Source of the DNA: Planctomycetota bacterium
Lineage (GTDB): Bacteria; Planctomycetota; SZUA-567
Direction: 5' to 3'
DNA: 64,000 nt
Assembly: GCA_963675945.1 (NCBI GenBank)
Contig: OY780932.1
Location: 1,640,503 to 1,704,502 of the forward strand
Shown here: positions 6,704 to 23,678 of the stretch, piece by piece
Position numbering within the stretch: the stretch's first letter is position 1
How the letters are laid out: the number at the start of each line of letters is the position of its first letter
Notes under the pieces: generated by a model
The model's input: only the letters and a program-made list of their open reading frames with translations
Told to the model about the DNA's origin: nothing
Database searches by the model: none
Translations under genes and position numbers: made by a program

Positions 6704-7657
6704 TCAACTGCTTTCGTTATCAGCTTCATCCCCGTCAAGGAAGGCCCAGGAAGAAGTAGCTTCTTTTTTGCTCTTGGTCTTTTCATAGTCCTGACGACAA
6801 TTGACGCAGCGAGTGGCGAAAGGAAGGATCTTGAGCCGGGAAGGGGAGATGGTAACATTACATATCTCACAGAGCCCGTAGGTGCCTTTTTCTATCTTCT
6901 CCAGTGCGGATTCAATCTGTTCAAGCTCTTCATCACTGTTGGCGGCAATTTCGAAGGTGACATCGTCGTCATAGGCATCGGCCGCTTGATCTACCGGGTC
7001 GGCAGAACTGGAGGAGGCGCGGTGACGGTAATCTGCCAGCTCTTTGCGCATATTCTCCAGAATACTCTCACGGAGTTCGATAAGCTTTTTGCGAGTAATT
7101 TTGAGTTCTTCTTCCGTCATGCGTCTGAACTCCTTGGGTTCGGCGCAGACGGTTGAAGCTTCGTTTTTTGGCTTTTTTGCGCCACTGAGCATTACTCCGG
7201 GAGCGAGTTTCAGGCCACCGGAAGGTTTTCTGGCGGTCACAATATGCCTCTGCTTTGCCCGACGGGATCCGGTCTTACCGGTTTTTTTGGGTGGGTGTAT
7301 GGTTTTTTTGCCATTTTCCACACTCTCGAGTTCCTTGATTTCCTTGCGGAGATGATCGCCTTCAAGATTGAGCGGGATAATCTCTTCGTCATCGGAATCT
7401 TGTAGATCGTCTTCAAGCTCCACTTCGGAATCAGTATCGAATTTGTCAAGATCGTTCTCGGTATCACGAGTATTTTCGACTACCTCGGTCTCTTGCTCCA
7501 GAGTGCTAGCTTTGGTGCTGCTCTTTTTGGCTACCTTTTTGCCGGACTTTTTGGCTGTTTTTTTTGAGGTTTTTTTGGCTACTTTCTTGGCTGTCTTCTT
7601 CCTCTCGGCTTTGGCTGTATCTTTTACAGTTTTCTTTGGAGCATCTTTTTTTGCCAT
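6704..7657 (-). CDS. DksA/TraR-family C4 zinc-finger protein with N-terminal lysine/alanine-rich histone H1-like tail
   Basis: The C-terminus CEICNVTISPSRLKILPFATRCVNCRQ is a DksA/TraR-type CxxC...CxxC finger. The N-terminal ~60 aa are KKxAKK repeats, followed by an acidic linker. Confidence 0.65.
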   Translation of the reverse strand: MAKKDAPKKTVKDTAKAERKKTAKKVAKKTSKKTAKKSGKKVAKKSSTKASTLEQETEVVENTRDTENDLDKFDTDSEVELEDDLQDSDDEEIIPLNLEGDHLRKEIKELESVENGKKTIHPPKKTGKTGSRRAKQRHIVTARKPSGGLKLAPGVMLSGAKKPKNEASTVCAEPKEFRRMTEEELKITRKKLIELRESILENMRKELADYRHRASSSSADPVDQAADAYDDDVTFEIAANSDEELEQIESALEKIEKGTYGLCEICNVTISPSRLKILPFATRCVNCRQDYEKTKSKKEATSSWAFLDGDEADNESS

Positions 7658-8099
7658 ATTGTTCTCCTTTTATCTGCAGTCAAATGCGGTTGCAGATAGT
7701 CTGGGTATTTGCTTGTCTCTAACCGGTATGGGTATAGAGGGGTACTGACATTTATTCTCTTCAAACACGACTATATAAATTGTATACTCTGTATCCTTGT
7801 GTAACCAAATGCCATAATTTTATTGAACCTAACTGCTTTGTTGGAATATGCGCAAACCTTTTTATCTGAAAACGTTCGAGAGTTAGAGCAAACTTATTTG
7901 TTGTTTTAATATGTAAAATCGCACAATAAGTATGGTGTTTGGGAGGTTAAATTCAAGAGTAAAATGCACAATTCTGTATTTTTTTCGCATGATTGATTAT
8001 ATCTTCTTCTGTAGTAAATAGTTGTGTGAGAAATTTTTGGGTTGTATTTGTGTGTTTTTGGGGGAGACGTGAGAGAGTGGAAAAAATAATATTAATATC

Positions 8100-8127
8100 T
8101 TGCTTATACGGGGTAAACGCATATAAT
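8100..8127 (+). promoter_or_regulatory. candidate sigma70 promoter for tRNA-Leu (TTGCTT-N16-TATAAT)
   Basis: -35 TTGCTT at 8100..8105 and -10 TATAAT at 8122..8127, about 25 nt upstream of the tRNA 5' end. Confidence 0.4.
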
Positions 8128-8152
8128 TTTTTCCACATTAAACTTGGTACAA

Positions 8153-8239
8153 GGGCGAGTGGCGGAATCGGCAGACGCAAGGGATTTAAAATCCCTTGAG
8201 ATTTATCTCGTACGGGTTCAAGTCCCGTCTTGCCCACCA
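8153..8239 (+). tRNA. tRNA-Leu (anticodon TAA)
   Basis: 87 nt including CCA. Acceptor stem GGGCGAG/CTTGCCC, anticodon stem AGGGA/TCCCT with loop TTTAAAA, long variable arm, T-loop TTCAAGT. Confidence 0.85.
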
Positions 8240-8244
8240 ATAAC

Positions 8245-8539
8245 AATCCCCCTCGACATTTATGTCGAGGGGGATTATTATTGGTGGTAGTAAGTAAGGG
8301 TCTCCCGTTTGTCCTGAGATGCTTTTGCAGGCGAGTAGTCGAGCGTGCAAAAGTGCCCACCAATTCCTTTTTCTGCGAGCATTTATGTCGAGGGGGATTA
8401 TTATTGGTGGTAGTAAGTAAGGGTCTCCCGTTTGTCCTGAGATACTTTTGCAGGCGAGTAGTCGAGCGTGCAAAAGTGCCCACCAATTTCTTATTCGTCG
8501 ACATTAATGCAGGCAGGGATTATTATTGGTGTCAGTGAG
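8245..8539. repeat. tandem direct repeats (about 123-bp period; two full copies and one partial) immediately 3' of tRNA-Leu; each full copy ends in TGCCCACCAAT, a copy of the tRNA 3' terminus
   Basis: Copy 1 spans 8247..8380, copy 2 8381..8503, and the partial copy 8504..8539. Copy 1 begins with a 32-bp perfect palindrome, aatccccctcgacatttatgtcgagggggatt. The tgcccaccaat motif occurs at 8231 (tRNA), 8354 and 8477. Confidence 0.8.
8526..8539. repeat. left copy of the 14-bp direct repeat TTGGTGTCAGTGAG bounding the RM/defence island (attL-like junction)
   Basis: The identical 14-mer recurs at 18715..18728. The repeat-unit homology is interrupted exactly here and resumes at the right copy. Confidence 0.6.
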
Positions 8540-8830
8540 AGAGTATAATGGTCTAAGAAATTTGGATAGTTGAATAAGGTAGATTTTCCCGATAATATTA
8601 TGAGAGAATTGATGTAAAATATAAGTTGGGGCTGAAGACTAGTACCACTTTTGTTGTATTATAGGGGTTAAGTTGAACTTAGAATGTATACAGTAGAAAA
8701 TAAGTACCATATTGTTATTGCTTTGTGCTCTTGAGGTTGTATTTTGCTTGCGCAGAAAGTGATTTAGGGTAGGATTGTAGGGTGGTAGTAATTTGGGTAA
8801 GAAGTTATTTGATAGAAGGATAATGGAACA

Positions 8831-10297
8831 ATGATAACTGGGGAGCTCAGGAATAAGGTAGATGCGATTTGGGATGTGTTTTGGGCTGGGGGGATTGCTA
8901 ATCCGATGACGGTTATTGAGCAGTTTACTTATCTACTTTTTATCAAGGGGCTTGATGATAGGCAGAATGAGCTGGATAGTAATGACTCGTTGATAGGGAC
9001 TGTGAGTGAGAAGATATTTCCAGATGATAAGCAGGAGCTTCGGTGGAGTACATTTAAGCATTTGCCGGCGGAGAAGATGTTTGAGTTGTTTGTTGATCCG
9101 AAGGATGGCGTGTTTGCGTTTATCAAGAATTTGCATGCGGATAAGGATTCGGCATTTTCTAAGTATATGGGGGATGCGATATTTGCGATACCGAAGGCGG
9201 GAATGCTGGAGAAGATTGTTACTTCGATTGATAAATTGGAGATCAAGGGGAAGGATGCGAAGGGGGACTTGTATGAGTATCTGCTGTCGAAGATAGCGAC
9301 GTCGGGGCAGAATGGGCAGTTTCGGACACCGAGGCATATTATCAAGATGATGGTGGAGCTGATGAAGCCGGTGCCGACGGATACGATAATTGATCCGGCT
9401 GCGGGGACGTCGGGGTTTCTGGTGGCTGCTGGGGAGTATTTGCAGGAGCATCATGATGAGATATTCAAGAAGCAGGAGTTAAGGGAGCATTATAATAATG
9501 AAATGTTCTTTGGGTTTGATACTGATACGACGATGCTGCGTATTGGGGCGATGAATATGATGCTACATGGGGTGGAGAATCCGAATATTGAGTATCGGGA
9601 TTCGTTGTCGGGTGATAATCATGAGCGGGAGAGGTGTTCGTTGATATTGGCGAATCCGCCGTTTAAAGGGTCGCTGAATTATGAGGATGTGTCGGCGGAT
9701 ATACTCAAAGTGACGAAGACGAAGAAGACTGAGTTATTGTTTGTGGCTCTTATGATCAAGATGCTCAAGAAGGGCGGGAGGTGTGCGTGTATTGTGCCGG
9801 ATGGGGTGCTCTTTGGGAGTAGCGGGGCGCATAAGATGCTGCGGAAGGAGATTGTGGAGAAGCATAATCTGCGGGCGATTATTTCTATGCCGAGTGGCGT
9901 GTTCAAGCCGTATGCGGGAGTTAGTACGGCGGTGATAATATTTGATAAGACTGGGATTGGGGGAACATCACAGATCTGGTTTTATGATATGGAGAGTGAC
10001 GGGTATAGTCTGGATGATAAGCGGACGGCGCTCAAGAGTTCTGATATACCGGATATTATCGAGCGGTTCGGGAGGCTGGAGAAGGAGAAGAAGCGGAAGC
10101 GGACGGAGCAGTCGTTCATGGTGCCGGTGAGTGAGGTGGTGAAGAATGAGTATGACTTGTCGATCAACCGGTATAAAGAGATAGTGTATGAAGAGGTGGA
10201 ATATGATGAGCCGGCGGTGATACTGGAAAGAGTGGCGGAGATGGAGAAGGATATTGGTAAGGGGATTAAGGATTTGCAGAAGATGCTGAGCAAGTAA
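8831..10297 (+). CDS. hsdM: Type I restriction-modification system N6-adenine DNA methyltransferase subunit HsdM
   Basis: HsdM N-terminal domain followed by the catalytic LANPPF motif and AdoMet motif DPAAGTSGFL; 488 aa. Confidence 0.9.
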   Translation: MITGELRNKVDAIWDVFWAGGIANPMTVIEQFTYLLFIKGLDDRQNELDSNDSLIGTVSEKIFPDDKQELRWSTFKHLPAEKMFELFVDPKDGVFAFIKNLHADKDSAFSKYMGDAIFAIPKAGMLEKIVTSIDKLEIKGKDAKGDLYEYLLSKIATSGQNGQFRTPRHIIKMMVELMKPVPTDTIIDPAAGTSGFLVAAGEYLQEHHDEIFKKQELREHYNNEMFFGFDTDTTMLRIGAMNMMLHGVENPNIEYRDSLSGDNHERERCSLILANPPFKGSLNYEDVSADILKVTKTKKTELLFVALMIKMLKKGGRCACIVPDGVLFGSSGAHKMLRKEIVEKHNLRAIISMPSGVFKPYAGVSTAVIIFDKTGIGGTSQIWFYDMESDGYSLDDKRTALKSSDIPDIIERFGRLEKEKKRKRTEQSFMVPVSEVVKNEYDLSINRYKEIVYEEVEYDEPAVILERVAEMEKDIGKGIKDLQKMLSK

Positions 10298-10313
10298 GGT
10301 AAGGGTATATTAT

Positions 10314-10739
10314 ATGAGTACTGAGATTGACTATGGAAAATTTAAGAAGGCATTGAAGTTGCTTGAGGAGCAGAATAACCGGCTTAATTCTGAGGTTGGG
10401 AGTATGGAAGAATGGGTAATTGATGCTGTTAAGGAGTCGACTATACAGAGATTTGAGACATGTTGGGACTGCCTGTGGAAGGTATTGAAGAGGTATTTGG
10501 AGATAGAGATAGGGCTTGCTGAAGTTCCGAATGGTCCGAATCCGATTTTGAGATTGGCGAATGAGAATAGTGTCTTGACTAGTTCTATTGAGGATTGGTT
10601 GATGTATGCGAGGGTAAGAGTTGGTACGTCACATGATTATAGCGGAGTGAAGGCTACTGATGCGTTGAAGTGTATGAGTAGTTTTATTGATGATGCGGTT
10701 AAGCTTTATGAGAAGATGAGTGGAGAGAGCTGGAGATAA
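10314..10739 (+). CDS. nucleotidyltransferase substrate-binding (HEPN, HI0074-like) toxin-antitoxin component
   Basis: 141 aa helical protein of the HI0074/NTase_sub_bind type. Its stop overlaps the start of the downstream minimal nucleotidyltransferase (ATAATG). Confidence 0.6.
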   Translation: MSTEIDYGKFKKALKLLEEQNNRLNSEVGSMEEWVIDAVKESTIQRFETCWDCLWKVLKRYLEIEIGLAEVPNGPNPILRLANENSVLTSSIEDWLMYARVRVGTSHDYSGVKATDALKCMSSFIDDAVKLYEKMSGESWR

Positions 10740-11056
10740 TGATTGATCATATACGTGATATAGATTTATCTGATGAGGAGTATCGTGAGGTGATGGCGTT
10801 GGTTGAGCGTTATATTCCTTGGGTTGAGGTATGGGTTTATGGTTCACGTGTTAAGCATACGGCAAAACCATATTCTGATTTGGATATGGTAGCTTTTGCT
10901 AGTGGTGAGAGTGTTTGTGCGGTTGCGGATTTGCGAGAGGCTTTTGAGGATAGTTATTTGCCATTCAGGGTTGATTTATTTATTTGGAAAGAGATACCGG
11001 AAGAGTTTAAGGAAGTTATTCGGGATGAGCATGTAGTTTTACAGGAAAAGAAATAG
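10739..11056 (+). CDS. minimal nucleotidyltransferase (MNT, HI0073/MntA-like) toxin-antitoxin component
   Basis: GSRVKHTAKPYSDLDM is the pol-beta-type NTase motif G[SG]x9-13Dx[DE]; 105 aa, translationally coupled to the upstream HEPN gene. Confidence 0.7.
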   Translation: MIDHIRDIDLSDEEYREVMALVERYIPWVEVWVYGSRVKHTAKPYSDLDMVAFASGESVCAVADLREAFEDSYLPFRVDLFIWKEIPEEFKEVIRDEHVVLQEKK

Positions 11057-11440
11057 GATTTGCAGAAGTAACGTTAATATAGCGTGTGATTTTAACCGAA
11101 GCGGTGAATACAGAATTGAGCGATCTGGCAAGCCAAGTAAATCGCTTTAGAAATTTACATAGTAGACTGAAGCGATACACAGGTCGCCAAGCAGGTGACA
11201 TTTTTCATCTGGGATGTATGTGAATTCCGAACTGGTGAGGAATGAGTCGTGTGCTTACTTTTGTCTGCTGGTCGGACGAAAAGTCAGTCGAAGTCTTCTG
11301 AGAATAGCGAATCCGACGCAGGAGGCGGGAGGATAGATGGAGCAACTTGTTGCGACACCCGAAGGGCAAGGACAGGGATGTCCGCAGTCAAGAAGGCTGA
11401 GAGTTTAGTCGTAGTTAAACTTGAAAATAGGGTTGAGTAA

Positions 11441-12598
11441 ATGAGTGAAAAGAAAAATAAAAAGCCGATTAATGAACATAAGTGGTATTTACTAATTATT
11501 ATTGTTGCTTTGGGGCTATTTTATATATATCCACTTTATACTCTGCTTGGAATTGGGTTTTTCTCACTAATAATTCATTTGCGATATGACCTTGATGACA
11601 TAGGAAAAATTGGTAGGAAGCATCCTGTATGGACAACAATTATATTATTTACATTTGGTATTGAGTTATATTTGTGGATTTATAAATATGGGTTATTATG
11701 GAAAGAACAGTATGCTCAACAGCCTTGGATAGAGTTGCTCGCAAATATTAAAAATGGTAAAGTTGTTGTAGGAAATAGTACCTTAGACTTTACTGAGTTG
11801 TTAAAAAAAGGCGTTGTTATGATGATTAGTACACCAGCATCAATTATTCCTATCATTCTTGCTCCGTATTTTTGGGTATTGTGGATTTGGAGGCATAATG
11901 ATAAAGAGTATGATAAAAAGAGAAATGAAGAGCTTGATGAGCAGGGTCGATTTAATCGGATAATTGATATGGTTGGGTCTACTGAGGTGAATTTACGATC
12001 AGGTGGAATGATGTTACTTGATGGCTTTCTAACTAGGTATGAAGATAATGATTTGGAATATAAATATTATTGTGGTGCTGCAATTTCTGTATTAGCAAAT
12101 AATTATTTCCCTGTTAATGATGGTATGTTTAATAGCAGAGTGATGTGTCATAAATCTTTTGCTGTTTGTTTAATATTACAAAATAAGCATTATAAAATAT
12201 GTGGAAAGCTAGCAGGTACTCCGTTATGTTTTGATTTTAATGTAAATGATTATATCGTCAGGTATTATGAGCTTTGTATTGATAATAGTCAGGAATTTGT
12301 TTTTGTTCGTTGTGTTGTAAGATTAGATATATTATTGTGTTTATTACGTAATAGTGAATATGCAAAAATATTTTCAAAAATGAAATTTAAAAAATCAATT
12401 TTTGAGATGACGGATTATTATTTAAAACATAGAATTCCCGATGATTTGATAGTTTTTTTTAGTGATAAAAATAAAGTTTATGAATGTTTATTGATGTGTC
12501 CTGAAGATAATTTTGCGAATAAGGAAGCATTTAAAATTATTAATAATTCAAATGATAATTTCTATATTGGTTTTAAATATGATAAAGAAGGAAATTAA
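11441..12598 (+). CDS. hypothetical multi-TM membrane protein, very AT-rich, translationally coupled to hsdS
   Basis: 385 aa with 3-4 N-terminal TM helices and a Cys-rich soluble C-terminal part; about 30% GC against about 45% in hsdM. Its stop overlaps the hsdS start (TAATG at 12596..12600). Confidence 0.55.
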   Translation: MSEKKNKKPINEHKWYLLIIIVALGLFYIYPLYTLLGIGFFSLIIHLRYDLDDIGKIGRKHPVWTTIILFTFGIELYLWIYKYGLLWKEQYAQQPWIELLANIKNGKVVVGNSTLDFTELLKKGVVMMISTPASIIPIILAPYFWVLWIWRHNDKEYDKKRNEELDEQGRFNRIIDMVGSTEVNLRSGGMMLLDGFLTRYEDNDLEYKYYCGAAISVLANNYFPVNDGMFNSRVMCHKSFAVCLILQNKHYKICGKLAGTPLCFDFNVNDYIVRYYELCIDNSQEFVFVRCVVRLDILLCLLRNSEYAKIFSKMKFKKSIFEMTDYYLKHRIPDDLIVFFSDKNKVYECLLMCPEDNFANKEAFKIINNSNDNFYIGFKYDKEGN

Positions 12599-13731
12599 TG
12601 AATAAATGGGAACTTGTTAAGCTTGGAGATGTAGTAACATTTCTTGATAATATGAGAGTGCCTGTAAAAGCTAGTGATAGAGTTGAAGGGGAATATCCAT
12701 ATTATGGGGCAAATGGACAGCAAGGAACAATTAATGATTATATTTTTGATGAATCATTAGTTTTGTTGGCTGAAGATGGTGGTAATTTTAATGATCCTAC
12801 TCGCCCTATTGCATACATTGCAAAGGGGAAGTATTGGGTTAATAACCATGCTCATGTTTTGCGCCCTTTAGAAATGATTACATTGAAATATTTATATTGG
12901 GTTTTAGCATTTTGTAATGTTATGCCTTATATTAAAGGGGCGACACGTCCAAAACTTACTAAAACTGACGCAAGTAGAATCAAAATCCCCCTCCCACCTC
13001 TGGCAACACAGAAACGCATAGTCAAGATACTGGACAAGGGGCAGGAGTTGATTGATAAGCGGAAGCGGCAGCTTGAGGAGATGGATGAACTGGTTAAGAG
13101 TTTGTTTTATGATATGTTTGGTGATCCTGTGACTAATCCTATGGGATGGGAAAAGGGAATAATTAGAGATTTAGCCGTGAAAACTCAGTATGGTACTAGT
13201 AAAAAGGCTCATGAAACAGATGGTGAGTTTCCTGTATTAAGAATGAATAACATAACATATAAGGGTACTTGGGACTTTAGCAGTCTTAAATATGTTGATT
13301 TTGATGAGAATGAAAAAGCAAAGTATTTAGTGTATAAAGGTGAGTTGCTTTTCAATAGAACTAATAGTAAGGAGCTAGTTGGTAAAACTGCTGTTTATAA
13401 AAATACTGAACCAATGGCATATGCTGGTTATCTTGTTAAGTTGATAGTGAATGAAAAAGCAAATTCTGAGTATATCTCTGCATATTTGAATTCAAATCAT
13501 GGTAAAGCAGTTTTGCTTAATATGGCAAAAAGTATTGTCGGTATGGCTAATATTAACGCTGAAGAATTAAAGAAGATTAAAATTTTGATCCCTCCTGTTT
13601 CGCTGCAAAATGAATTTGCAACCAGAGTACAAGCAATAGAAACAGAAAAAGAACGAATGCAGAAGTCACTCAAAGAGCTTGAGGATAATTTTGCAGCGTT
13701 GATGCAGAGGGTGTTTAAAGGGGAGTTGTAG
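12598..13731 (+). CDS. hsdS: Type I restriction-modification specificity subunit HsdS
   Basis: Two target-recognition domains, a central conserved LPPLATQKRIVKILD helix, a C-terminal coiled-coil repeat, 377 aa. Confidence 0.85.
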   Translation: MNKWELVKLGDVVTFLDNMRVPVKASDRVEGEYPYYGANGQQGTINDYIFDESLVLLAEDGGNFNDPTRPIAYIAKGKYWVNNHAHVLRPLEMITLKYLYWVLAFCNVMPYIKGATRPKLTKTDASRIKIPLPPLATQKRIVKILDKGQELIDKRKRQLEEMDELVKSLFYDMFGDPVTNPMGWEKGIIRDLAVKTQYGTSKKAHETDGEFPVLRMNNITYKGTWDFSSLKYVDFDENEKAKYLVYKGELLFNRTNSKELVGKTAVYKNTEPMAYAGYLVKLIVNEKANSEYISAYLNSNHGKAVLLNMAKSIVGMANINAEELKKIKILIPPVSLQNEFATRVQAIETEKERMQKSLKELEDNFAALMQRVFKGEL

Positions 13732-13871
13732 TTAGCTGAATACGCTGGCACGAAGCTTATATCTTGATGAATTTGGTAATTTGAATGCGGTGCTGGATTG
13801 TCATGAGGATTTTAATAGTAATATGAATTTTGTGGGTGAGTAGGTATATTTGAATAATAAGGACAATATTT

Positions 13872-14183
13872 ATGATTACCATTAAGATTAATAATGAATA
13901 CCGAAGGCTGAAAGATACGAGTAAAGAGTGGATTGTAAATATGTTTAGGAATATTCAAGCAGCGGGTGCTAACCCGTGGTATATTATCACTGTTGAAGAT
14001 CAGAATGTATATTCAGCATTTTGTTCGAATAATATTCCAACTTCACAAGAGTTGTGTCCGAAGTATACCCATACACTAGAAGAAAAAGAATTATCAGTTC
14101 TTTGGAAAACCCTTTGTGATGGGAGTAGTAACGTAAATGAAGTTTTGGCTTTTCTTGATAAAATTCCAAGTAAATATTTATAG
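13872..14183 (+). CDS. hypothetical small protein (103 aa) translationally coupled to downstream TIR-domain gene
   Basis: AT-rich ORF. Its stop at 14181..14183 is followed by GGAGGTG, the RBS of the TIR gene, 3 nt later. Confidence 0.45.
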   Translation: MITIKINNEYRRLKDTSKEWIVNMFRNIQAAGANPWYIITVEDQNVYSAFCSNNIPTSQELCPKYTHTLEEKELSVLWKTLCDGSSNVNEVLAFLDKIPSKYL

Positions 14184-14186
14184 GAG

Positions 14187-15146
14187 GTGATGATGGCAGG
14201 AGTATCGGTTTTCTTCTCATATTCGCATGCAGATGAAGAAATGAGAGATCAATTAGAGAAACACCTTACAATGTTAAAACGTAATGGTAATATATCAACA
14301 TTTCATGATAGAGAAATATTAGCTGGTGCTGAATTCGGTAATGAAATAGATCAAAATTTAATTGAAGCAGGAATAATTTTGTTATTAGTTAGTCCTGATT
14401 TTTTAGCGTCAGAATATTGTTATTCGATAGAGATGCAAACAGCTTTGAAAATGCATAAAGAAAATAAAGCAGTGGTTATCCCTGTAATTTTAGATCATTG
14501 CGATTGGCGAAGTGCTCCTTTTAGCTCTTTGATGGCTGTACCAAATGATGCAAAGCCAATTACTGAGTATGCAAATCAAAATAAGGCATTTGACGAAATT
14601 ACAACAGAGATAAGAAAAGTAGTTCAAAGTATTGCTGATACGGCTGATATCGCATGTTCAACAGCTAATTTTGAAGTTGAAAATTGTGAACCAAAAGTTG
14701 TTTGTAATGATAGATCAGCTAATTTGCATGTAAAGAAAGAATTTACTGAGCTTGATTTTAATGATTTTTTGAATAACTCATATGATTATATTGCAAAATA
14801 TATGCAGAACACACTTGAAGAATTTGAAAAAAGAAATGTTGGATTTCAAACAAGATTTAATTCTAATGATTCAAAAATTGAAATTTTAATATTTAATAAT
14901 GGAGTTAAAGTTGCTTATTGTAGAATTATGAAAGGAAGAGATGTTTCTTATATGATTGATTCGTTAGTATACTCTGAATCTGAGATGGGTAATTCTTTTA
15001 ATGATTCATTAAATATTGAAAATGATGGAACTTCTTTATTTTGGAAGCCAAGTTTTAATGTTGGGTATAGCCAAAAAGAAGAATTATTGTCGATGAAAGG
15101 GGCTGCTGAGTTTTTTTGGGATAAAGTTATTAGTAGGTTTCAGTAA
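14187..15146 (+). CDS. TIR-domain protein (N-terminal TIR_2-like domain plus about 170-aa C-terminal domain of unknown function)
   Basis: VFFSYSHADEEMRDQLEKHL ... IILLLVSPDFLASEYCYSIEMQTAL ... VIPVILD matches the bacterial TIR fold (SxSH, conserved Glu, hydrophobic beta-strand motifs). Strong RBS GGAGGTG. Confidence 0.7.
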   Translation: MMMAGVSVFFSYSHADEEMRDQLEKHLTMLKRNGNISTFHDREILAGAEFGNEIDQNLIEAGIILLLVSPDFLASEYCYSIEMQTALKMHKENKAVVIPVILDHCDWRSAPFSSLMAVPNDAKPITEYANQNKAFDEITTEIRKVVQSIADTADIACSTANFEVENCEPKVVCNDRSANLHVKKEFTELDFNDFLNNSYDYIAKYMQNTLEEFEKRNVGFQTRFNSNDSKIEILIFNNGVKVAYCRIMKGRDVSYMIDSLVYSESEMGNSFNDSLNIENDGTSLFWKPSFNVGYSQKEELLSMKGAAEFFWDKVISRFQ

Positions 15147-15297
15147 TTAGAATTAATGAAGTTTTCAACAAACTGCCCAGTGCGGGCTGCGCACCGAGGG
15201 ATGCAAGGGGCGAGGAGCCCCTGCGGAAGGGGTTTGGGGAAGGAACGTCCCCATTAGGAGTGACTTTGAACTATAAGGTTGGGTAAAAGGGATAGAG

Positions 15298-18200
15298 ATG
15301 AGTAACTTTGGGTTTTTGGATAAGCATAGTATGTTCAGGACGATTACGCCGCTGTGTAAAGAGGCGGAGAGTGCGCTCGGGGTGTCTAATGCTATCGCGG
15401 CGCTGTCGGCTAGGAGAGCGCTGGAGAGTGCGGTGAAATGGATGTACTCACATGACAGTACGCTTGAAGTGCCGTATCAGGATAACCTTTCCGCACTGAT
15501 TCATGATTATAAATTCAAAGACCTGATAGATGAAAGACTGTTTCCGAGAATCAAGTTCATTATAACACTGGGGAATAAAGCAGCGCATCAGTCTATGCCG
15601 ATGCGACGGGATGAGAGTGTGAAAGCGCTGGAGAATCTGTTTCATTTTATGAGGTGGATTACGTACGCTTATGGCGGTGAGAACTGTGCGGTGAAGTTTG
15701 AGGTTGGGAAACTGGCGGGTAGTGCTGAATATGAGCGGAAGACGAAGGCGATACAGGATGAGTTCAGAGAGAAGAAGGTTGAGTGGGAAGCGGAGAAGAA
15801 GAAGCTTGAAGAGCTGCTGCTGAGTAAGGAAGAGCGGGAAGAGGTAACGCAGAAGCGAGAAGAGAATGAGCAGAAGGCTGATTTTGCGTGTGAAGATATA
15901 TCTGAGTTCAAGACGAGAAAGGTTTATATCGATCTGGCGCTGGAGATGGCTGGCTGGGAGATTGGGGCTGACTGTAGGGAAGAGGTAGAAGTAAGCGGGA
16001 TGAAGAATGCTTCGGGAGTGGGGTTTGTTGATTATGTGCTGTATGCTGCTGACGGTAAGCCGCTCGCGGTAGTCGAGGCGAAGCGGGCGGCTAAAGATCC
16101 GAAGATTGGTAAGGTGCAGGCGAAGCTGTATGCGGATTGTCTGGAAGAGGAGTATGGTGTTCGACCGCTTATCTATTATACCAATGGATTTGAATACTGG
16201 TTGTGGGAGGATGCGTTCTATCCGGAGAGAAGGGTGTCGGGGATTGCGACGCGGGACAGCCTTGACTGGTACAGGCAGAGAGTAAAGACACGGAAGGATA
16301 TTTCTGCTGTTAAAGTGAATGATGAGATATCAAACAGACCTTATCAGAAAGCTGCGATTCAGGCGGTGTGTGAGAATCTGAGTAAGGCACAGAGGAAGTC
16401 TTTACTGGTGATGGCTACGGGGGCGGGCAAGACGCGTACGGCTATATCGATCGTTGATGTGCTGACTAAGAATAACTGGATTAAGAATGTCTTATTCCTT
16501 GCTGACAGGCGTGAGCTGGTTAAACAGGCTAAGCAGAACTTTTCTAAATTACTGCCGCATCATACAATCTGTAATCTGCTGGAGAAGAAGACGGAGGATA
16601 ATTCACTCAACAGTAGGATTATATTCTCTACTTATCCGACGATAATGAATGCGATTGATGTGACAAAGAAGGATGATGGTTCGACGCTCTTTACGGTAGG
16701 GCATTTTGACTTAATTATTATTGATGAATCACACCGTTCAATTTATAAAAAATATCAGGATATCTTTGCGTACTTTGACTCGTATCTACTGGGGCTTACT
16801 GCTACGCCGAAGAGCGATATCGGGAAGAATACTTATGGGTTCTATGATATTGAGAATGGAGTGCCGACGCATGCGTATACGCTGGATGAGGCGATACGTG
16901 ATGAGTGGCTGGTGCCGTATCGGGTGGTGAATACTACGCTGAAGTTTCTCACTTCTGGGGTTAAGTATGATGAGTTGTCGGATGAGGAGCAGGAGGAGTG
17001 GGAGGATAAGATTGGTGAGGAGATTGACAGTATCAGCAGTAACGAGGTGAACAGGATACTCTTCAATGATAATACTGTGGATACGGTTATTCAGGCGTTG
17101 ATGAATGATGGGATTAAGATTGAGGGCGGGGATAAGATCGGGAAGACGATTATCTTTGCTGCCAATACGAAGCATGCGGAGTATATTCTTGGGAGATTCA
17201 ATAAATTGTATCCGCATTACGCGGGGAAATTTGCTGCGACTATTTATAACGGGGTGAATTATGTTGATTCGCTGATCGATGATTTTAAGGAGGAGGATAA
17301 ATTTCCGCAGATTGCTGTGTCGGTGGATATGCTTGATACGGGGATTGATGTGCCGTCGATTGTCAATCTGGTCTTCTTTAAGAAGGTGCGCTCTAAAGCG
17401 AAGTTTCATCAGATGATTGGGCGTGGGACTAGGCTTTGTGAGGATCTCTTCGGTATTGGGGAGGATAAAGATGGATTTCGTATTTTTGATTATTGTTCGA
17501 ATTTTGAATTCTTCAAGGAAAATACGCAGGGGATTGAGACGAGACCGCAGAGGTCGCTCTCTGAGTGTCTGTTTATTATAAAGACTGAGATTGCGAAATT
17601 GCTTGAACATGCAACCTATCAGGAGAAGGAGTATATTAATCACCGTAAAGAGTTGGTGACTGGGTTGGCGAAAGAGGTGTATATGCTGGATGACTCTAGT
17701 CTTATCAATAGACTTCATTTAAAGTATATTCATGAATATCGTGATGTGAATGCATGGCAGAGTATATCTGACAAGATGCTGGCTGATATTAAAGAGCATA
17801 TTGCGCAGATTGTGATTCCGTCTACAGAGGATGAGTTGAAGAAACGGTTTGATTACTTGATGTATGCGATTGAGCATGCGTGTCTTGACCGGAAACAGCC
17901 TGCGCCGAAGAATAGGCGGAAGTTACAAACAACGGCTGAGAAGCTTGAGGAGAAGGGTAATTTGCCACAGGTGCAGCGTAACCTTGAGATTATAGAGTAT
18001 GTACAGTCTGAGGAGTATTGGGAGAATGCGTCTGTGTTTGATCATGAGCGGGTGCGTATTGCGCTGCGTGAGCTTGTGGTTCTCCTTGAGAGAGAAAACG
18101 CTGCAACGTACTTCACCAACTTTATGGATGAAGTGCTTGAGGTGCAGGAGATTGAGGGAGTGTACACTACGGATGAGTTTGTGAGCTACCGCAGGAAGGT

Positions 18201-18642
18201 TGAGGCTTATCTCAAAGAGCATCAGGATGACTTTGTTGTTTATAAGTTGCGTCACAATGAAACGCTCAACTTGAAGGATGTTGAGCATCTGGAGGATCTT
18301 CTGTGGAATGAGCTTGGGAGTGAGAATGATTACAAAACAGAGTATGGTGAGCAGCCCTTGCTTGAATTAGCTGCCAAACTTGTCGGCTTAGACCGTAATA
18401 CAGCGCAGGGTTTGTTCTCTGAATTTTTGTCTGATAATTCTCTCAATAGCAATCAGATTAATTTTGTCTCTCAGATTGTTGATTATATTGAGGATAATGG
18501 TGTGATTGATAAAAAGGTATTGCATGATCATCCGTTCAATCAGCAGGGGAGTATTGCTGAGCTGTTTGAGAATAAATTGCATGTTGTGACTAGTATAGCG
18601 AAAATTCTTGATGCTGTTAATGAGCGGGTTAGAGTGGGGTAA
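15298..18642 (+). CDS. hsdR: Type I restriction-modification endonuclease/helicase subunit HsdR
   Basis: 1114 aa. HsdR N-terminal region, PD-(D/E)xK nuclease motif FVDYVLY...VVEAKR, SF2 helicase Walker A MATGAGKTRTA and DExH box IIIDESHR. Confidence 0.9.
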   Translation: MSNFGFLDKHSMFRTITPLCKEAESALGVSNAIAALSARRALESAVKWMYSHDSTLEVPYQDNLSALIHDYKFKDLIDERLFPRIKFIITLGNKAAHQSMPMRRDESVKALENLFHFMRWITYAYGGENCAVKFEVGKLAGSAEYERKTKAIQDEFREKKVEWEAEKKKLEELLLSKEEREEVTQKREENEQKADFACEDISEFKTRKVYIDLALEMAGWEIGADCREEVEVSGMKNASGVGFVDYVLYAADGKPLAVVEAKRAAKDPKIGKVQAKLYADCLEEEYGVRPLIYYTNGFEYWLWEDAFYPERRVSGIATRDSLDWYRQRVKTRKDISAVKVNDEISNRPYQKAAIQAVCENLSKAQRKSLLVMATGAGKTRTAISIVDVLTKNNWIKNVLFLADRRELVKQAKQNFSKLLPHHTICNLLEKKTEDNSLNSRIIFSTYPTIMNAIDVTKKDDGSTLFTVGHFDLIIIDESHRSIYKKYQDIFAYFDSYLLGLTATPKSDIGKNTYGFYDIENGVPTHAYTLDEAIRDEWLVPYRVVNTTLKFLTSGVKYDELSDEEQEEWEDKIGEEIDSISSNEVNRILFNDNTVDTVIQALMNDGIKIEGGDKIGKTIIFAANTKHAEYILGRFNKLYPHYAGKFAATIYNGVNYVDSLIDDFKEEDKFPQIAVSVDMLDTGIDVPSIVNLVFFKKVRSKAKFHQMIGRGTRLCEDLFGIGEDKDGFRIFDYCSNFEFFKENTQGIETRPQRSLSECLFIIKTEIAKLLEHATYQEKEYINHRKELVTGLAKEVYMLDDSSLINRLHLKYIHEYRDVNAWQSISDKMLADIKEHIAQIVIPSTEDELKKRFDYLMYAIEHACLDRKQPAPKNRRKLQTTAEKLEEKGNLPQVQRNLEIIEYVQSEEYWENASVFDHERVRIALRELVVLLERENAATYFTNFMDEVLEVQEIEGVYTTDEFVSYRRKVEAYLKEHQDDFVVYKLRHNETLNLKDVEHLEDLLWNELGSENDYKTEYGEQPLLELAAKLVGLDRNTAQGLFSEFLSDNSLNSNQINFVSQIVDYIEDNGVIDKKVLHDHPFNQQGSIAELFENKLHVVTSIAKILDAVNERVRVG

Positions 18643-18714
18643 GCTACTCAATGAAGGTAGATTATGAGTAAGAAATATAAGAAGAAGATTACGTTGTTTA
18701 ATGTGTTGTCTGTG

Positions 18715-18728
18715 TTGGTGTCAGTGAG
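18715..18728. repeat. right copy of the 14-bp direct repeat TTGGTGTCAGTGAG (attR-like junction), followed by a repeat-unit remnant (18729..18768) homologous to the 8290..8330 and 8413..8453 units
   Basis: Sequence identity to 8526..8539, and continuation of the interrupted repeat unit (taagggtctctcgtttgtcctgagatgcttttgcaggc). Confidence 0.6.
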
Positions 18729-20277
18729 TAAGGGTCTCTCGTTTGTCCTGAGATGCTTTTGCAGGCTGGGACTTACGGGGAGTTTTTTGGAAGGGCTTAC
18801 TGCCGATAAAAATACGGCACAGAAGAGTAATTCCAGAAGCGGCAAGACAGATTACGGCAATGCCGCAGAGCATGTTTTTGATTCCCAGCCAGTGCATAAC
18901 CATCGGCAGAAAAAATACACCTGAAACAGCGCCGATCTTGGAACAGAAAGCGGCCAGCCCGTGGATTGTACCGCGCATTTCAGTCGGGAATATTTCCACC
19001 GGCAGCATGAAGGTGGTTGAGTTCGGTCCGGCGTTCATCAGTAAGTTGAAAATTATAAATCCGGAGAAGATAACCCACATTGCTGCCTGTGGCTTTCCGT
19101 CAGCTCCTAGAGCGTTGGAGAGGATAATTAGCCCTAGCGCCATTCCGATAAAACCAATAACTTGCAGACGGATTCGACCGACTCTTTCTACCAGAAGAAT
19201 ATTTAAGATAAATCCGCCCAGCAGGAAAAGATCGACAAAAGCAGAGCCTTCGGTTGAGAGCATTACATTGCTGAAGATGTTGTAGTGGCCTGAATGCGCG
19301 CCTTTGGATACGATATCGGTAATGATAAGCGGGGTGAATATGCCGATGCCGTAAGTTGCCACATCCATCAGGAACCAGGGAATGGTTACCAGAATTGTCC
19401 GCCAGATATATTTTGGGGTTAATAGTTCATGGTAGCACTGCCCATGTTTATTTATCAGGGTTTCCTGATATTCTTGCTCTTCTATAAGTATGCGTTCGAT
19501 GACTTTCATCTTGTAAGGCACATATTTGCGGATAATTTTGGCTGCGTCATGTACTCTTCCTTGCAGTAGGAGCCAACGCGGACTTTCTGGCACATATGAG
19601 CGTAGAAAGAGGACGATAACCGCGGGCAGAGCTAGAAAAGTCAGATATAGTCTCCAGGAAAAAATCTGATCCGGCAGCATCAGCATTATGCCGATGCCGC
19701 TCAGAGCTGCAAAGATCATCCCCACCGACTGGAAGGAGAAAGCCGCGATTAGCAGCCGCCCGCGCAGGTGAGAAGGCATTAATTCTGTGACGTAGGAAGC
19801 GGCGATGGGGTAATCCGAGCCTGCGGCGTAACCGACTATGAATTGGCAGACTGAGAGCATGTAGACATCACTGGAGAGTCCGCTGAGCAAAGCTCCTACA
19901 ACTGCTATAAGCATATTGAAGGTGAAGAAAAACCTGCGTCCGAAAATATCAGCAAGCCTGCCGGAAATTAGCGAACCGATAGCGGCGCCGAGGAGGGTCG
20001 AAACACCGGACAAGCCAAGCTGCCAGTATACCAATTCGAAATTATTCTTGATAAGCGGAAGGGCTACACCTATGGAAAAAATGCAGTATCCTTCAAGAAA
20101 TATCCCCATCGCCGCGAGAATCCAGACATAAAGATGAAGTTTGGAAAATTTTGCTTCGTCAAGCATTTCATTGAGGTTGGTTGCCACCTGATTTTTATTT
20201 GTCATTTTATGTCCTGTAAATTTTGTTGTTGCCTTGCCCGTGTAATGAGGCTTGGATTTTAATGTGATGTGTAACAT
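18721..20277 (-). CDS. MFS transporter (sugar/metabolite:H+ symporter-like)
   Basis: 518 aa with 12 predicted TM helices and a sugar-porter-like GRR/PESPRWL motif. The last 16 codons are encoded by the repeat/att region. Confidence 0.75.
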   Translation of the reverse strand: MLHITLKSKPHYTGKATTKFTGHKMTNKNQVATNLNEMLDEAKFSKLHLYVWILAAMGIFLEGYCIFSIGVALPLIKNNFELVYWQLGLSGVSTLLGAAIGSLISGRLADIFGRRFFFTFNMLIAVVGALLSGLSSDVYMLSVCQFIVGYAAGSDYPIAASYVTELMPSHLRGRLLIAAFSFQSVGMIFAALSGIGIMLMLPDQIFSWRLYLTFLALPAVIVLFLRSYVPESPRWLLLQGRVHDAAKIIRKYVPYKMKVIERILIEEQEYQETLINKHGQCYHELLTPKYIWRTILVTIPWFLMDVATYGIGIFTPLIITDIVSKGAHSGHYNIFSNVMLSTEGSAFVDLFLLGGFILNILLVERVGRIRLQVIGFIGMALGLIILSNALGADGKPQAAMWVIFSGFIIFNLLMNAGPNSTTFMLPVEIFPTEMRGTIHGLAAFCSKIGAVSGVFFLPMVMHWLGIKNMLCGIAVICLAASGITLLCRIFIGSKPFQKTPRKSQPAKASQDKRETLTH

Positions 20278-21667: not shown

Positions 21668-21703
21668 CGTCTACTCCTTTTTTAATAATCTATGATTCAC
21701 GGT

Positions 21704-22996
21704 CTATACCTCTATTCCGAACAAGCGGGGGAGCCAGAGAGTAAGCTCAGGGATAAAACCTGTAGCCAGAACAATCAAGAGGTTGAAGGCCAGGAACGGC
21801 AAGACCTCCTTACTGACTTTGAAGAGATCCACCTTTGCTAGATCGGTTATGGCAAAGAGAATATTCCCCACTGGTGGCGTGCAGAGGCCGATATTGGTAT
21901 TGATGATCAGCATGATTCCGAACTGAATTTCATTGAGCCCCATCTTGGCGGCAATCGGCCAGAGAATGGGGGCGAATAGAATGATCGATACTCCGGGATC
22001 CATCCAGGTGCCCATAAACAGGAAGAAGGCATTTACCAGCAGAACCAGGAGTATCTTACTGGTGGTGATGGAGAGGAAGAAGTTCTCGGCGACCTTCGGC
22101 ACCTGCTCTGCTCCGAAGACCCAGGTGATTACCGAGGCTCCGGCAATAATAAGATATAGTTTCGCCGAACTACGTGCTGCGCCCTTTAGCGATGCCAGCA
22201 GATCCTTCCACTTCAGCGAGCGATAAACGATAAAGCCGATAATCAGCGAATAGAATACCGAGACGGCTGCGGCCTCAGTCGGGGTGAACATCCCGGAGAG
22301 GATACCTGCAATAATTATCACCGGCATCAGCATTGCGAGGAAAGCATCCTTCAGGCTGAACATGAATTCTTTCGGCGTGGTTTTGACTACGACTTTCGGG
22401 TACTTGCGGTACGAGGAGATTGCTGCAACGACACCCATATCGGCGACGCCGATCAGCAGTCCTGGAATAATCGCTCCGAGGAACATTCCGCCTACTGAGA
22501 CCTTCATAACCGCTGCATACAGGACGATTACCGTGCTGGGAGGGATAATCGGGCCGACCAGCGACGAGGCTGCAGTCACCCCGGCGCTGAACTCCTTGTC
22601 ATAACCCTGCTTCTCCATCGAGGGGATAAAGATGGTGCCAAGTGCCGCAATATCACCTAAAGCTACCCCAGTTATCCCGGCAAACAGGATACTTGCCAGT
22701 ACATTTACCTGAGCCAAGCCGCCGCGTACCCGGCCAATAACGATATTGGAGAACTGAATAAGCCTGTCTGAGATTCCGGCTCGGTTCATGATATCGCCTG
22801 CCAGCATGAAGAAGGGGATAGCGGTTAGGACAAAGACATTTATCCCTCCAAATACCTTTTCCGGCATCATCATCAGGTTCATGAAGTCCCCGGAAAAGAG
22901 CAGATACAGAAAGCCGCTTATCAACATCGAGAAACCAACCGGCATCCCTAAGAATAAGAAGGCTAGAAACACCAGCAAAAAGACACCTAAGGTCAT
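21704..22996 (-). CDS. dctM: TRAP transporter large permease subunit (DctM family)
   Basis: 430 aa, about 12 TM helices, DctM-type sequence. Confidence 0.85.
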   Translation of the reverse strand: MTLGVFLLVFLAFLFLGMPVGFSMLISGFLYLLFSGDFMNLMMMPEKVFGGINVFVLTAIPFFMLAGDIMNRAGISDRLIQFSNIVIGRVRGGLAQVNVLASILFAGITGVALGDIAALGTIFIPSMEKQGYDKEFSAGVTAASSLVGPIIPPSTVIVLYAAVMKVSVGGMFLGAIIPGLLIGVADMGVVAAISSYRKYPKVVVKTTPKEFMFSLKDAFLAMLMPVIIIAGILSGMFTPTEAAAVSVFYSLIIGFIVYRSLKWKDLLASLKGAARSSAKLYLIIAGASVITWVFGAEQVPKVAENFFLSITTSKILLVLLVNAFFLFMGTWMDPGVSIILFAPILWPIAAKMGLNEIQFGIMLIINTNIGLCTPPVGNILFAITDLAKVDLFKVSKEVLPFLAFNLLIVLATGFIPELTLWLPRLFGIEV

Positions 22997-22998
22997 GC

Positions 22999-23538: not shown

Positions 23539-23678
23539 TTATTATCCTTTCACGATAACAAATATCGAAATATATGCAAAACAGCTGTTGCTGATAGTTC
23601 TGGAAGCATCTGTACAAGCTCAGAATGAGCGTTACGAAAATGCTCCCAGCATCAATGTGGCGCAATGTGCTCTGCTAT

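What the first reader, a model, noticed from the sequence alone, without database searches (positions are those of the whole stretch)
8245..8539. Tandem ~123-bp repeat units that each carry a copy of the tRNA-Leu 3' terminus and a pseudo-copy of the MFS gene 3' end
Each unit ends with gtgcccaccaat, matching the tRNA 3' end cttgcccaccaat. Each unit also contains agtaagggtctcccgtttgtcctgagatgcttttgcaggc, which at 18729..18768 encodes the last 16 codons of the convergent MFS transporter (..QPAKASQDKRETLTH*). Every unit therefore looks like an att scar that supplies both a tRNA 3' end and a replacement 3' end for the target gene. This is what serial integration and excision of elements at this tRNA/MFS site would leave behind. 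Unit 1 also opens with a perfect 32-bp palindrome, aatccccctcgacatttatgtcgagggggatt, a possible recombinase or terminator site.
Basis: seen in the sequence. Interest (0 to 1): 0.55.

Follow-up and report, generated by a model that had tools for sequence, protein, structure and literature searches.

The report
Tandem-duplicated tRNA-Leu/MFS intergenic spacer array
The spacer between a leucine tRNA gene and a transporter gene has been copied head-to-tail about three times, taking the last bases of both genes with it; it lies in a hot spot for mobile DNA, but it looks like an ordinary local repeat array, not a series of integration scars.

Summary
tRNA-Leu(UAA) (8153-8239) is followed by 2.5 units of a 123-bp tandem repeat (8231-8543). 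Each unit carries TGCCCACCAAT, which is the last 9 nt of the tRNA plus 2 nt. Each also carries a 52-nt copy of the MFS 3' end (true copy at 18715-18766, not 18729-18768).

In the one close relative, a Planctomycetota MAG with 92.6% nt identity in the flanks, the MFS gene runs directly into at least 3.5 such units. The real tRNA end and the real MFS end are therefore the first and last units of one array.

The 21-nt junction filler is identical in every unit within a genome. This points to one founding duplication followed by unequal crossing-over, not to serial integrations.

True integration scars at this tRNA in more distant relatives look different. They have a 34-nt tRNA fragment, integrase genes or pseudogenes, and a 25-kb mobilisable element with a homologous type I R-M system.

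In the window, unit C is cut by the terminal 56 nt of an IS3-family element. A 10-kb R-M/ThsB/HEPN-MNT island then separates the array from the MFS gene.

No other copy of the unit was found in any accessible sequence. Verdict: a locus-specific minisatellite in an island hot spot, of modest interest.

The parts
8153..8239 (+). tRNA-Leu(UAA). Its last 9 nt (TGCCCACCA) plus 2 nt form the start of unit A.
   Evidence: ARAGORN; Rfam tRNA, 57.4 bits. The 3' end CTTGCCCACCAAT is identical in all relatives.
8229..8295 (.). Long hairpin. The perfect palindrome core is 8245-8276. The outer stem pairs the tRNA 3' end (CTTGC/CCACCAAT) with ATTGGTGG..GTAAG. It resembles a bidirectional terminator.
   Evidence: pair I2: 26-nt arms, 96% complementary; terminator-like, 14 pairs; -45.4 kcal/mol, z = -11.5.
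8231..8353 (.). Unit A (123 bp), continuous with the tRNA. Only this unit has the perfect left hairpin arm AACAATCCCCCTCGA.
8354..8476 (.). Unit B (123 bp). It matches unit A at 97 of 98 positions after its first 25 nt. Its left hairpin arm is degenerate (TCCTTTTTCTGCGAG).
8477..8543 (.). Unit C, truncated and more diverged. It carries the MFS-proximal variant TCAGTGAG and ends where the IS remnant starts.
   Evidence: (family D2).
8281..8332 (.). Copy of the MFS 3' end in unit A (52 nt). The second copy is at 8404-8455.
   Evidence: family D3.
8333..8353 (.). 21-nt junction filler GAGTAGTCGAGCGTGCAAAAG, repeated at 8456-8476. Its last 11 nt are an inverted copy (10 of 11) of the adjacent MFS-derived CTTTTGCAGGC. 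Together they form hairpin 2 (8322-8353).
   Evidence: Direct reading; fold; identical in all junctions of a genome.
8544..8599 (+). Remnant of the left terminal 56 nt of an IS3-family insertion sequence, abutting unit C.
   Evidence: 84% identity to positions 3-58 of a 1323-bp IS present twice in a relative. That IS encodes HTH_Tnp_1 and rve proteins.
8544..18714 (+). 10.2-kb defence island that splits the array. Genes: hsdM 8831-10297; HEPN-like 10314-10739; MNT 10739-11056; unknown 11441-12598; hsdS 12598-13731; small ORF 13872-14183; ThsB-like TIR 14187-15146; hsdR 15298-18642.
   Evidence: Pfam; PADLOC; 40% GC and GC skew +0.38; homologous R-M in relatives.
8526..8539 (.). Left copy of the 14-bp direct repeat TTGGTGTCAGTGAG that flanks the island.
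18715..18766 (.). Terminal partial unit, which is the real MFS 3' end. It includes the right copy of the 14-bp repeat (18715-18728) and the MFS stop codon (18721-18723).
18721..20277 (-). MFS (sugar-transporter family) gene, convergent with the tRNA. Its last 15 codons lie in the repeat unit.
   Evidence: ORF; Pfam Sugar_tr and MFS_1; the C-terminal tail is variable among homologues.

Best explanation
The stretch is a locus-specific tandem array (minisatellite). It was made by duplicating the whole convergent spacer between tRNA-Leu(UAA) and the MFS gene.

Structure (shown):
- Each 122/123-bp unit runs from the last 9 nt of the tRNA (plus 2 nt), through the terminator-hairpin region, to 46 nt inside the MFS reading frame.
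- Units are joined by a 21-nt filler.
- The functional tRNA end is the first unit. In the MAG, the functional MFS end is continuous with the last unit.
- Array and flanks diverge equally between the two genomes, so the array predates their split.
- Unit C is cut by an IS3-family end. This IS remnant and a type I R-M/ThsB/HEPN-MNT island lie between the array and the MFS gene.

Origin (inferred):
- One founding duplication created the junction. The filler contains an inverted copy of the adjacent sequence, which fits a template-switch event or a single aberrant recombination event.
- Unequal crossing-over, slippage and gene conversion then changed copy number and homogenised the units.
- The perfect palindrome of unit A could be a quasipalindrome correction. 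It could also have been selected as the working tRNA/MFS terminator.
- The array has no demonstrated function of its own. It supplies repeated homology and hairpins at a site where mobile DNA keeps landing.
For: - Both ends of the array blend into functional genes. The tRNA end is identical in relatives that lack the array. The MFS gene is continuous with the array in the MAG.
- Fillers are identical within a genome and differ by one base between genomes: GAGTAGTCGAG in the window, GAGTAGGCGAG in the MAG.
- The period is 123 in the window and 122 in the MAG. Copy number is 2.5 plus a terminal 0.4 unit in the window, and at least 3.5 in the MAG, where the contig ends inside the array.
- Both genomes have positional subtypes: GTAAG near the tRNA and GTGAG near the MFS gene.
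- Unit identity between genomes is 89-93.5%. Flank identity is 92.6%.
- No integrase and no ORF-bearing DNA lies between units.
- The unit was found nowhere else. Searches covered the rest of the 64-kb window, about 22 kb of MAG loci, six relatives' loci, JGI metagenomes and IMG/VR. The array-translated ORF has no homologue among 1.84 billion protein representatives.
- The filler forms an inverted repeat with adjacent sequence.
- The island's left junction is an IS end, not an att site.
Against: - Only two genomes carry the array, so the pre-duplication state has not been seen.
- The 21-nt filler is not explained by a simple tandem duplication.
- The 11-nt tRNA-end copy in exact register, and its inverted partner ATTGGTGG in every unit, could be recombinase sites.
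- The island is flanked by a 14-bp direct repeat, and TATTGGTGGT recurs at 30661 near the far edge of the variable block. Both hint at site-specific events.
- The same tRNA is a proven integrase target in relatives.
- The rest of the 3.9-Mb genome could not be scanned for dispersed copies.
Confidence: 0.55

Rival explanations
1. One element-mediated founding event. An integrative element at tRNA-Leu excised aberrantly and carried off the chromosomal spacer and the MFS 3' end, as in specialised transduction. It then re-integrated and duplicated that segment. Deletion of its interior left the 21-nt filler, and the unit was later amplified by unequal crossing-over.
For: - The tRNA is an active integrase target in relatives, with tandem remnants.
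- The filler resembles neither the tRNA nor the MFS gene.
- Internal units keep CCAATT(T/C)CTTAT, closer to the relatives' native flank CCAATTTGTAT than to the window's own tRNA-proximal CCAATAACAAT.
Against: - The filler has no match to the P or P' arms of the relatives' element. The P-arm comparison gave p about 0.06.
- The tRNA-derived block is 11 nt, against 34 nt for that integrase family.
- No element remnant is detectable.
Confidence: 0.2
2. Each unit is an independent att scar left by serial integration and excision of elements that bring both a tRNA 3' end and a replacement MFS 3' end.
For: - Each unit carries copies of both gene ends.
- The locus is a hot spot in relatives.
- Tandem arrays of integrative elements at tRNA genes are a known phenomenon (PMC7192596, read).
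Against: - The identical 21-nt filler at every junction argues for amplification of one junction.
- Precise excision leaves no scar.
- No integrase or element DNA lies between units.
- True scars in relatives contain a 34-nt tRNA fragment plus integrase pseudogenes.
- In the MAG the array is continuous with the intact MFS gene.
Confidence: 0.08
3. The units are members of a dispersed REP/BIME/MITE-like repeat family, and the similarity to the gene ends is secondary.
For: - Units contain two hairpins and occur in tandem, as BIME and BOX modules do.
- Most of the genome could not be inspected.
Against: - No further copy occurs in the other 63.7 kb of the window, in about 22 kb of MAG loci, in relatives, or in two public collections.
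- The first unit is continuous with a tRNA end that is conserved in relatives lacking the repeat, so the tRNA is the source and not the recipient.
- No terminal inverted repeats or target duplications bound the units.
Confidence: 0.05
4. The array is functional. It could be an iterated pseudo-attB 'landing pad' for recombinases, with the tRNA-end core CCACCAAT and its inverted copy ATTGGTGG in every unit. Alternatively it could be an iterated terminator or RNA element between convergent genes.
For: - A 14-bp direct repeat containing TTGGTG flanks the island.
- TATTGGTGGT recurs at 30661, near the far edge of the 22.5-kb block that is absent from L010.
- The array has been retained since the split of the two genomes.
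- Hairpin 2 is invariant.
Against: - The island's left junction is an IS end.
- In a periodic array, two independent breakpoints give an overlap of 18 bp or less about 15% of the time, so the 14-bp repeat is weak evidence.
- Hairpin 1 decays in internal units, and unit B's fold is not better than shuffles (z = -0.87).
- There is no Rfam match.
- The promoter-like count is no higher than in shuffled sequence (3 found, 3.9 expected); the two terminator-like hits are the unit A palindrome itself and the tRNA anticodon stem.
- No recombinase gene lies nearby.
Confidence: 0.08

Closest known systems
Bacterial intergenic minisatellites / VNTR loci (the kind used in MLVA typing)
   Same: Head-to-tail copies of a unit of about 100 bp in a non-coding spacer. 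Copy number and period differ between close relatives. Units evolve in concert. No mobility genes are present.
   Different: The unit boundaries reach into two functional genes: 9 nt of a tRNA and 46 nt of an ORF. Units are joined by a 21-nt filler that forms a hairpin with neighbouring sequence. The array lies in an island-integration hot spot.
Tandem arrays of integrative genetic elements at tRNA genes, bounded by displaced tRNA gene fragments (Islander/TIGER framework, PMC7192596)
   Same: An intact tRNA gene is followed by direct repeats of its 3' end. The same tRNA carries integrase-bearing elements, and tandem remnants of them, in relatives.
   Different: The repeated tRNA segment is 11 nt here, not the 34-nt block seen in relatives. 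Nothing but 21 nt lies between repeats. There is no integrase. All junctions are identical.
Integrative elements that carry a replacement 3' end for a protein-coding target gene (for example the icd-targeting elements mentioned in PMC7192596; general principle from my own knowledge)
   Same: Duplicate copies of a gene's 3' end lie next to the gene.
   Different: No element is associated with the copies. In the MAG the real gene end is continuous with the array. The duplicated tail is a variable, dispensable C-terminal extension, and a TAG codon truncates it in the MAG.
REP/BIME, BOX and other modular intergenic repeats
   Same: Hairpin-containing modules that can occur in tandem between convergent genes.
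   Different: Those families are dispersed at tens to hundreds of loci. This unit is seen at one locus only and is derived from its own flanks.
Quasipalindrome template-switch mutation (own knowledge)
   Same: Unit A differs from the other units by a cluster of changes. These make its left arm an almost exact complement (20 of 21) of the right arm.
   Different: This is inferred from the sequence pattern only. Selection for a strong terminator would give the same result.

Membership tests
Tandem integrative-element array / att scars at a tRNA gene | An intact tRNA gene at one end of the array | tested here: met
   tRNA-Leu(UAA) at 8153-8239.
Tandem integrative-element array / att scars at a tRNA gene | Direct repeats of a displaced tRNA 3' fragment covering the integrase's identity block | tested here: inconclusive
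   Only 11 nt (TGCCCACCAAT) are repeated. The bona fide scar in the relative repeats 34 nt, GGGTTCAAG...CCAATTTGTAT. The filler upstream shows no similarity to the tRNA body (p about 0.86).
Tandem integrative-element array / att scars at a tRNA gene | An integrase gene or pseudogene next to an att site | tested here: not met
   tblastn with both relatives' integrases finds nothing in the 64-kb window except a spurious hit antisense to the tRNA. Pfam found no integrase in the island or in the flanking ORFs tested.
Tandem integrative-element array / att scars at a tRNA gene | Element DNA, or differing remnants of it, between successive repeats | tested here: not met
   Only an identical 21-nt filler lies between units.
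Minisatellite / VNTR | Head-to-tail copies with a constant period | tested here: met
   TRF: period 123, 92% matches, score 473. The MAG has period 122.
Minisatellite / VNTR | Copy-number or unit variation between related genomes at the same locus | tested here: met
   The window has 2.5 units plus the terminal partial unit. The MAG has at least 3.5 units. Only two genomes are available.
Minisatellite / VNTR | Confined to one locus | tested here: inconclusive
   No other copy in the window, the MAG loci, the relatives, JGI metagenomes or IMG/VR. The complete genome could not be fetched.
REP/BIME/MITE dispersed repeats | Many copies at unrelated loci | tested here: not met
   Single locus in all accessible sequence. 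A genome-wide test was not possible.
REP/BIME/MITE dispersed repeats | Terminal inverted repeats and target-site duplication bounding each unit (for MITEs) | tested here: not met
   Units abut directly and their ends are continuous with the flanking genes.
Integron cassette array (attC sites) | An intI integrase with attI, and ORF cassettes separated by attC sites | tested here: not met
   No integrase. No ORFs lie between units. The 122-nt period in the MAG breaks any reading frame.
CRISPR array | Short repeats separated by unique spacers | tested here: not met
   Units are contiguous with no unique spacers.
Structured RNA family (Rfam) | A match to a curated covariance model | tested here: not met
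   Only the tRNA passes. All other hits fall far below their gathering scores.

The most novel reading that the evidence does not exclude
The array may be an amplified set of pseudo-attachment sites built on the tRNA-Leu 3' end. Each unit offers the core CCACCAAT and its inverted copy ATTGGTGG. A recombinase acting in trans could use these units as a chromosomal landing pad to capture gene blocks that lack an integrase. Three observations would then be footprints of the same site-specific system: the R-M/ThsB island flanked by TTGGTGTCAGTGAG, the sugar-utilisation block, and the TATTGGTGGT copy at 30661.
Probability: 0.07. Interest if true: 0.65.

Novelty: new member of a known kind. Interest (0 to 1): 0.3.

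Why it matters
The main value is a caution. Short tRNA-end copies beside a tRNA gene are easily read as integration scars. Here, comparison with a sister genome shows a locally generated repeat array whose end units are the real gene ends.

The finding also documents, in a barely sampled Planctomycetota lineage, how one tRNA-Leu locus varies between genomes. The states seen are: empty; integrase remnant; integrase with decayed R-M; a full mobilisable element with a type I R-M system; and, in this genome, an R-M/ThsB/HEPN-MNT island that has lost integrase and relaxase and sits behind an IS remnant inside a repeat array.

If the units did turn out to be used as recombination sites, this would be a new kind of integration platform. 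The present evidence does not favour that.

Tried and rejected
- Exact-protein look-ups of the window's MFS, HsdM and HsdR found nothing on record, although HsdR is listed at 100% identity. The rest of the genome and other strains could therefore not be read.
- Three unit-derived patterns gave 0 hits: two in JGI metagenomes and three in IMG/VR.
- phmmer of the 102-aa ORF that runs through the array, against 1.84 billion representatives, gave 0 hits. The 122-nt period in the MAG also argues against coding.
- The MAG's tRNA-side contig could not be reached. Its DapF contig ends 152 bp after the gene fragment.
- Filler as a degenerate tRNA 3' half: rejected (local alignment p about 0.86).
- Unit hairpin region homologous to the native tRNA-Leu terminator of the empty-site relative: not significant (p about 0.14).
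- Filler compared with that terminator stem: suggestive only (p 0.003-0.04, uncorrected for six tests).
- Island right end homologous to the P arm of the relatives' element: not significant (p about 0.06).
- IS right end at the island's right junction: no match.
- Rfam search of 7900-8900: only the tRNA.
- Promoter-like matches inside the hairpin (TCGACA-17-TATTAT): no more frequent than in shuffles.
- tRNA-like fold of a unit ending in GCCCACCA: no 5' partner for an acceptor stem. Unit B's fold is not better than shuffles.

Full report
**1. What is there**

ARAGORN and Rfam place tRNA-Leu(UAA) at 8153-8239 on the + strand. Tandem Repeats Finder reports one array at 8254-8531: period 123, 2.3 copies, 92% matches, score 473. 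It is the only tandem repeat scoring 60 or more in the 64-kb window.

Read in register from TGCCCACCAAT, the units are:
- A, 8231-8353
- B, 8354-8476
- C, 8477-8543, truncated

A unit contains, in order:
- TGCCCACCAAT, which is the last 9 nt of the tRNA plus 2 nt
- a hairpin region
- ATTATTGGTG(G), an inverted copy of the tRNA end
- a 52-nt copy of the MFS 3' end
- a 21-nt filler, GAGTAGTCGAGCGTGCAAAAG

GCCCACCAAT occurs three times in the window, against 0.14 expected. The true MFS copy is 18715-18766. Of this, 46 nt are coding and the stop codon TCA is at 18721-18723.

The perfect 32-nt palindrome is at 8245-8276. It extends outward into a 29-bp stem that includes the whole 3' strand of the tRNA acceptor stem. 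As RNA it folds at -45.4 kcal/mol, z = -11.5.

**2. The surroundings change the picture**

Between unit C and the MFS gene lies a 10.2-kb block, 8544-18714. It has 40% GC and a GC skew of +0.38. It encodes:
- hsdM
- a HEPN-like/MNT pair
- an unknown 385-aa protein
- hsdS
- a small ORF
- a ThsB-like TIR protein
- hsdR

These assignments come from Pfam and PADLOC. The block encodes no integrase.

Its first 56 nt (8544-8599) are 84% identical to the left terminal 56 nt of a 1323-bp IS3-family element. That element is present in two copies in a relative, where it encodes HTH_Tnp_1 and rve proteins. So the left junction of the island is an IS end that hit unit C, and the IS was later truncated.

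The island is flanked by a 14-bp direct repeat, TTGGTGTCAGTGAG (8526-8539 and 18715-18728).

**3. The sister genome**

Only one close relative exists in the collections searched. It is a Planctomycetota MAG (CAUVYI02; MFS 95% aa identity; flanks 92.6% nt identity).

In the MAG the MFS gene runs without interruption into at least 3.5 units of 122 bp, and the contig ends inside the array. The real MFS 3' end is therefore the terminal unit of the array, just as the real tRNA 3' end is the first unit. The MAG is also an 'empty site' for the R-M island.

Aligning all units shows several things:
- The filler is identical at every junction within a genome. It differs by one base between genomes (GAGTAGTCGAG in the window, GAGTAGGCGAG in the MAG).
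- Both genomes have a tRNA-proximal subtype (..GTAAG) and an MFS-proximal subtype (..GTGAG).
- Units are 89-93.5% identical between the genomes, the same as the flanks.

The array therefore predates the split of the two genomes. It has since evolved by copy-number change and partial homogenisation. In the MAG a TAG codon ends the MFS nine codons early. MFS homologues have variable C-terminal tails, so the part of the ORF inside the unit appears dispensable.

**4. More distant relatives show what real scars at this tRNA look like**

These relatives have 61-66% DapF identity. The DapF-DksA-tRNA-Leu(UAA) synteny is conserved in all of them. The states seen are:
- L010 and L012 are empty. The tRNA is followed by CCAATTTGTAT and a native terminator. 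In L010, synteny then resumes with window 30714-32656.
- L011 has an integrase pseudogene after the terminator.
- L009 has an intact 446-aa integrase followed by decayed fragments of an hsdM homologous to the window's.
- L004+L007, one 3.9-Mb contig, carries a mobilisable element of about 25 kb. It encodes an integrase, DUF4365, HigB, HTH_17, a DnaB-like protein, a type I R-M system with the same ThsB-like gene, a radical-SAM protein, and relaxase/MobC. It is followed by a 34-nt tRNA 3' fragment (GGGTTCAAGTCCCGTCTTGCCCACCAATTTGTAT) and a second integrase remnant.

The window's R-M is homologous to that element's R-M: 85% nt over hsdM and 74% over TIR-hsdR. The homology ends exactly at the hsdR stop codon.

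But authentic scars there carry 34-nt tRNA fragments and integrase debris, not 123-bp units. No unit-like sequence and no comparable tandem repeat occurs near the tRNA in any of these loci.

**5. Best explanation**

One founding duplication of the tRNA-MFS spacer created a junction with a 21-nt filler. The last 11 nt of the filler are an inverted copy (10 of 11) of the adjacent CTTTTGCAGGC, and the two form hairpin 2. That pattern fits template switching, or a single aberrant recombination event.

Unequal crossing-over and slippage then produced 3-4 units. Serial independent integrations are unlikely, because independent decay would not leave the same 21 nt each time.

Unit A differs from all other units only in a 15-17-nt cluster. 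That cluster makes its left arm 20 of 21 complementary to the right arm. This could be a quasipalindrome correction, or selection for the working bidirectional terminator. Both are inferences.

The 14-bp repeat around the island need not be a target duplication. Two independent breakpoints in neighbouring units of a 123-bp periodic array overlap by 18 bp or less about 15% of the time, and the left breakpoint is demonstrably an IS junction.

**6. What remains open**

- The origin of the filler is unknown. It is not tRNA-like (p about 0.86). It is only weakly similar to the relatives' terminator stem (p 0.003-0.04 uncorrected).
- A third TATTGGTGGT lies at 30661-30670. This is in the 300-nt spacer just before synteny with the empty-site relative resumes, and it is conserved in the MAG. 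It is unexpected (about 6e-4, assessed post hoc) and unexplained.
- Dispersal of the unit elsewhere in the 3.9-Mb genome could not be tested, because the contig could not be fetched.
- Searches of JGI metagenomes, IMG/VR and 1.84 billion protein representatives found nothing.

**7. Comparison with what is known, and verdict**

The closest known kinds are intergenic minisatellites (VNTRs) and tandem integrative-element arrays at tRNA genes (PMC7192596).

The array meets the defining features of a minisatellite: constant period, inter-genome variation and a single locus as far as could be seen. It fails three of four defining features of an att-scar array: there is no integrase, there is no element DNA between repeats, and the tRNA block is far shorter than in the authentic scars nearby.

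It is a new member of a known kind. What is unusual is that its units reach into two functional genes and that it lies in an island hot spot. Interest is modest (0.3).

The most novel reading not excluded is that the units serve as iterated pseudo-att sites. I put this at about 7%.

Noticed in passing
window 14187-15146 (also L007 8882-9835): A full-length ThsB-like TIR protein (PADLOC ThsB1, E = 2.4e-94) sits between hsdS and hsdR of the type I R-M operon. No ThsA was detected. It is conserved at the same position in the relative's R-M system.
   Followed up: partly
window 8544-18714: The R-M island is strongly G-rich and C-poor on its coding strand. GC skew is +0.38 over 10 kb, reaching +0.46 for hsdM and +0.54 for HEPN/MNT. 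The homologous R-M in the relative shows +0.33. Flanking DNA shows about +0.07 to +0.16.
   Followed up: partly
window 30661-30670: A third copy of TATTGGTGGT, the hairpin right arm of units A and B, lies in the spacer just before synteny with the empty-site relative L010 resumes at 30714. It is conserved in the MAG. It could mark the far edge of the 22.5-kb variable block, or it could be chance.
   Followed up: partly
window 8242-30713: The whole 22.5-kb stretch is absent from the empty-site relative L010, where the tRNA is followed directly by the homologues of 30715-32699. The stretch comprises the array, the R-M island, a sugar-utilisation cluster (MFS, DUF4867, DUF4432, GH4, LacI) and tRNA-Leu(CAG) at 30330-30415.
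   Followed up: partly
window 21689-25886: About 4.2 kb carrying four minus-strand ORFs (430, 179, 342 and 396 aa) lies inside the sugar cluster. It is absent from the otherwise collinear MAG (92.6% nt identity on both sides).
   Followed up: no
window 10314-11056: A HEPN-like (NTase_sub_bind) and minimal nucleotidyltransferase pair is inserted between hsdM and hsdS. It is not present in the relative's otherwise collinear R-M operon.
   Followed up: partly
window 11441-12598: A 385-aa predicted protein has no Pfam or PADLOC match and very low GC (28.5%). It lies inside the R-M operon. Its homologue in the relative is interrupted by the IS3-family element.
   Followed up: no
window 59941-60306 (-): An IS3-family orfA (HTH_Tnp_1) fragment lies next to a MatE gene (58318-59544), MarR and tRNA-Glu (57020-57097). 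In the relative, a MatE gene is also interrupted by the IS.
   Followed up: no
L004 12312-13877 and L009 12298-13638 (minus strand): The integrase ORFs of the relatives' elements read through the antisense of the tRNA-Leu gene, giving the C-terminus ...WWARRDLNPYEKKSQGILNPLRLPIPPLA. The called int gene therefore overlaps attL and the tRNA by about 90 nt.
   Followed up: no
window 6704-7657 (-): A DksA/TraR zinc-finger protein has a long lysine-rich, low-complexity N-terminal extension. It is conserved immediately upstream of tRNA-Leu(UAA) in all relatives examined.
   Followed up: no
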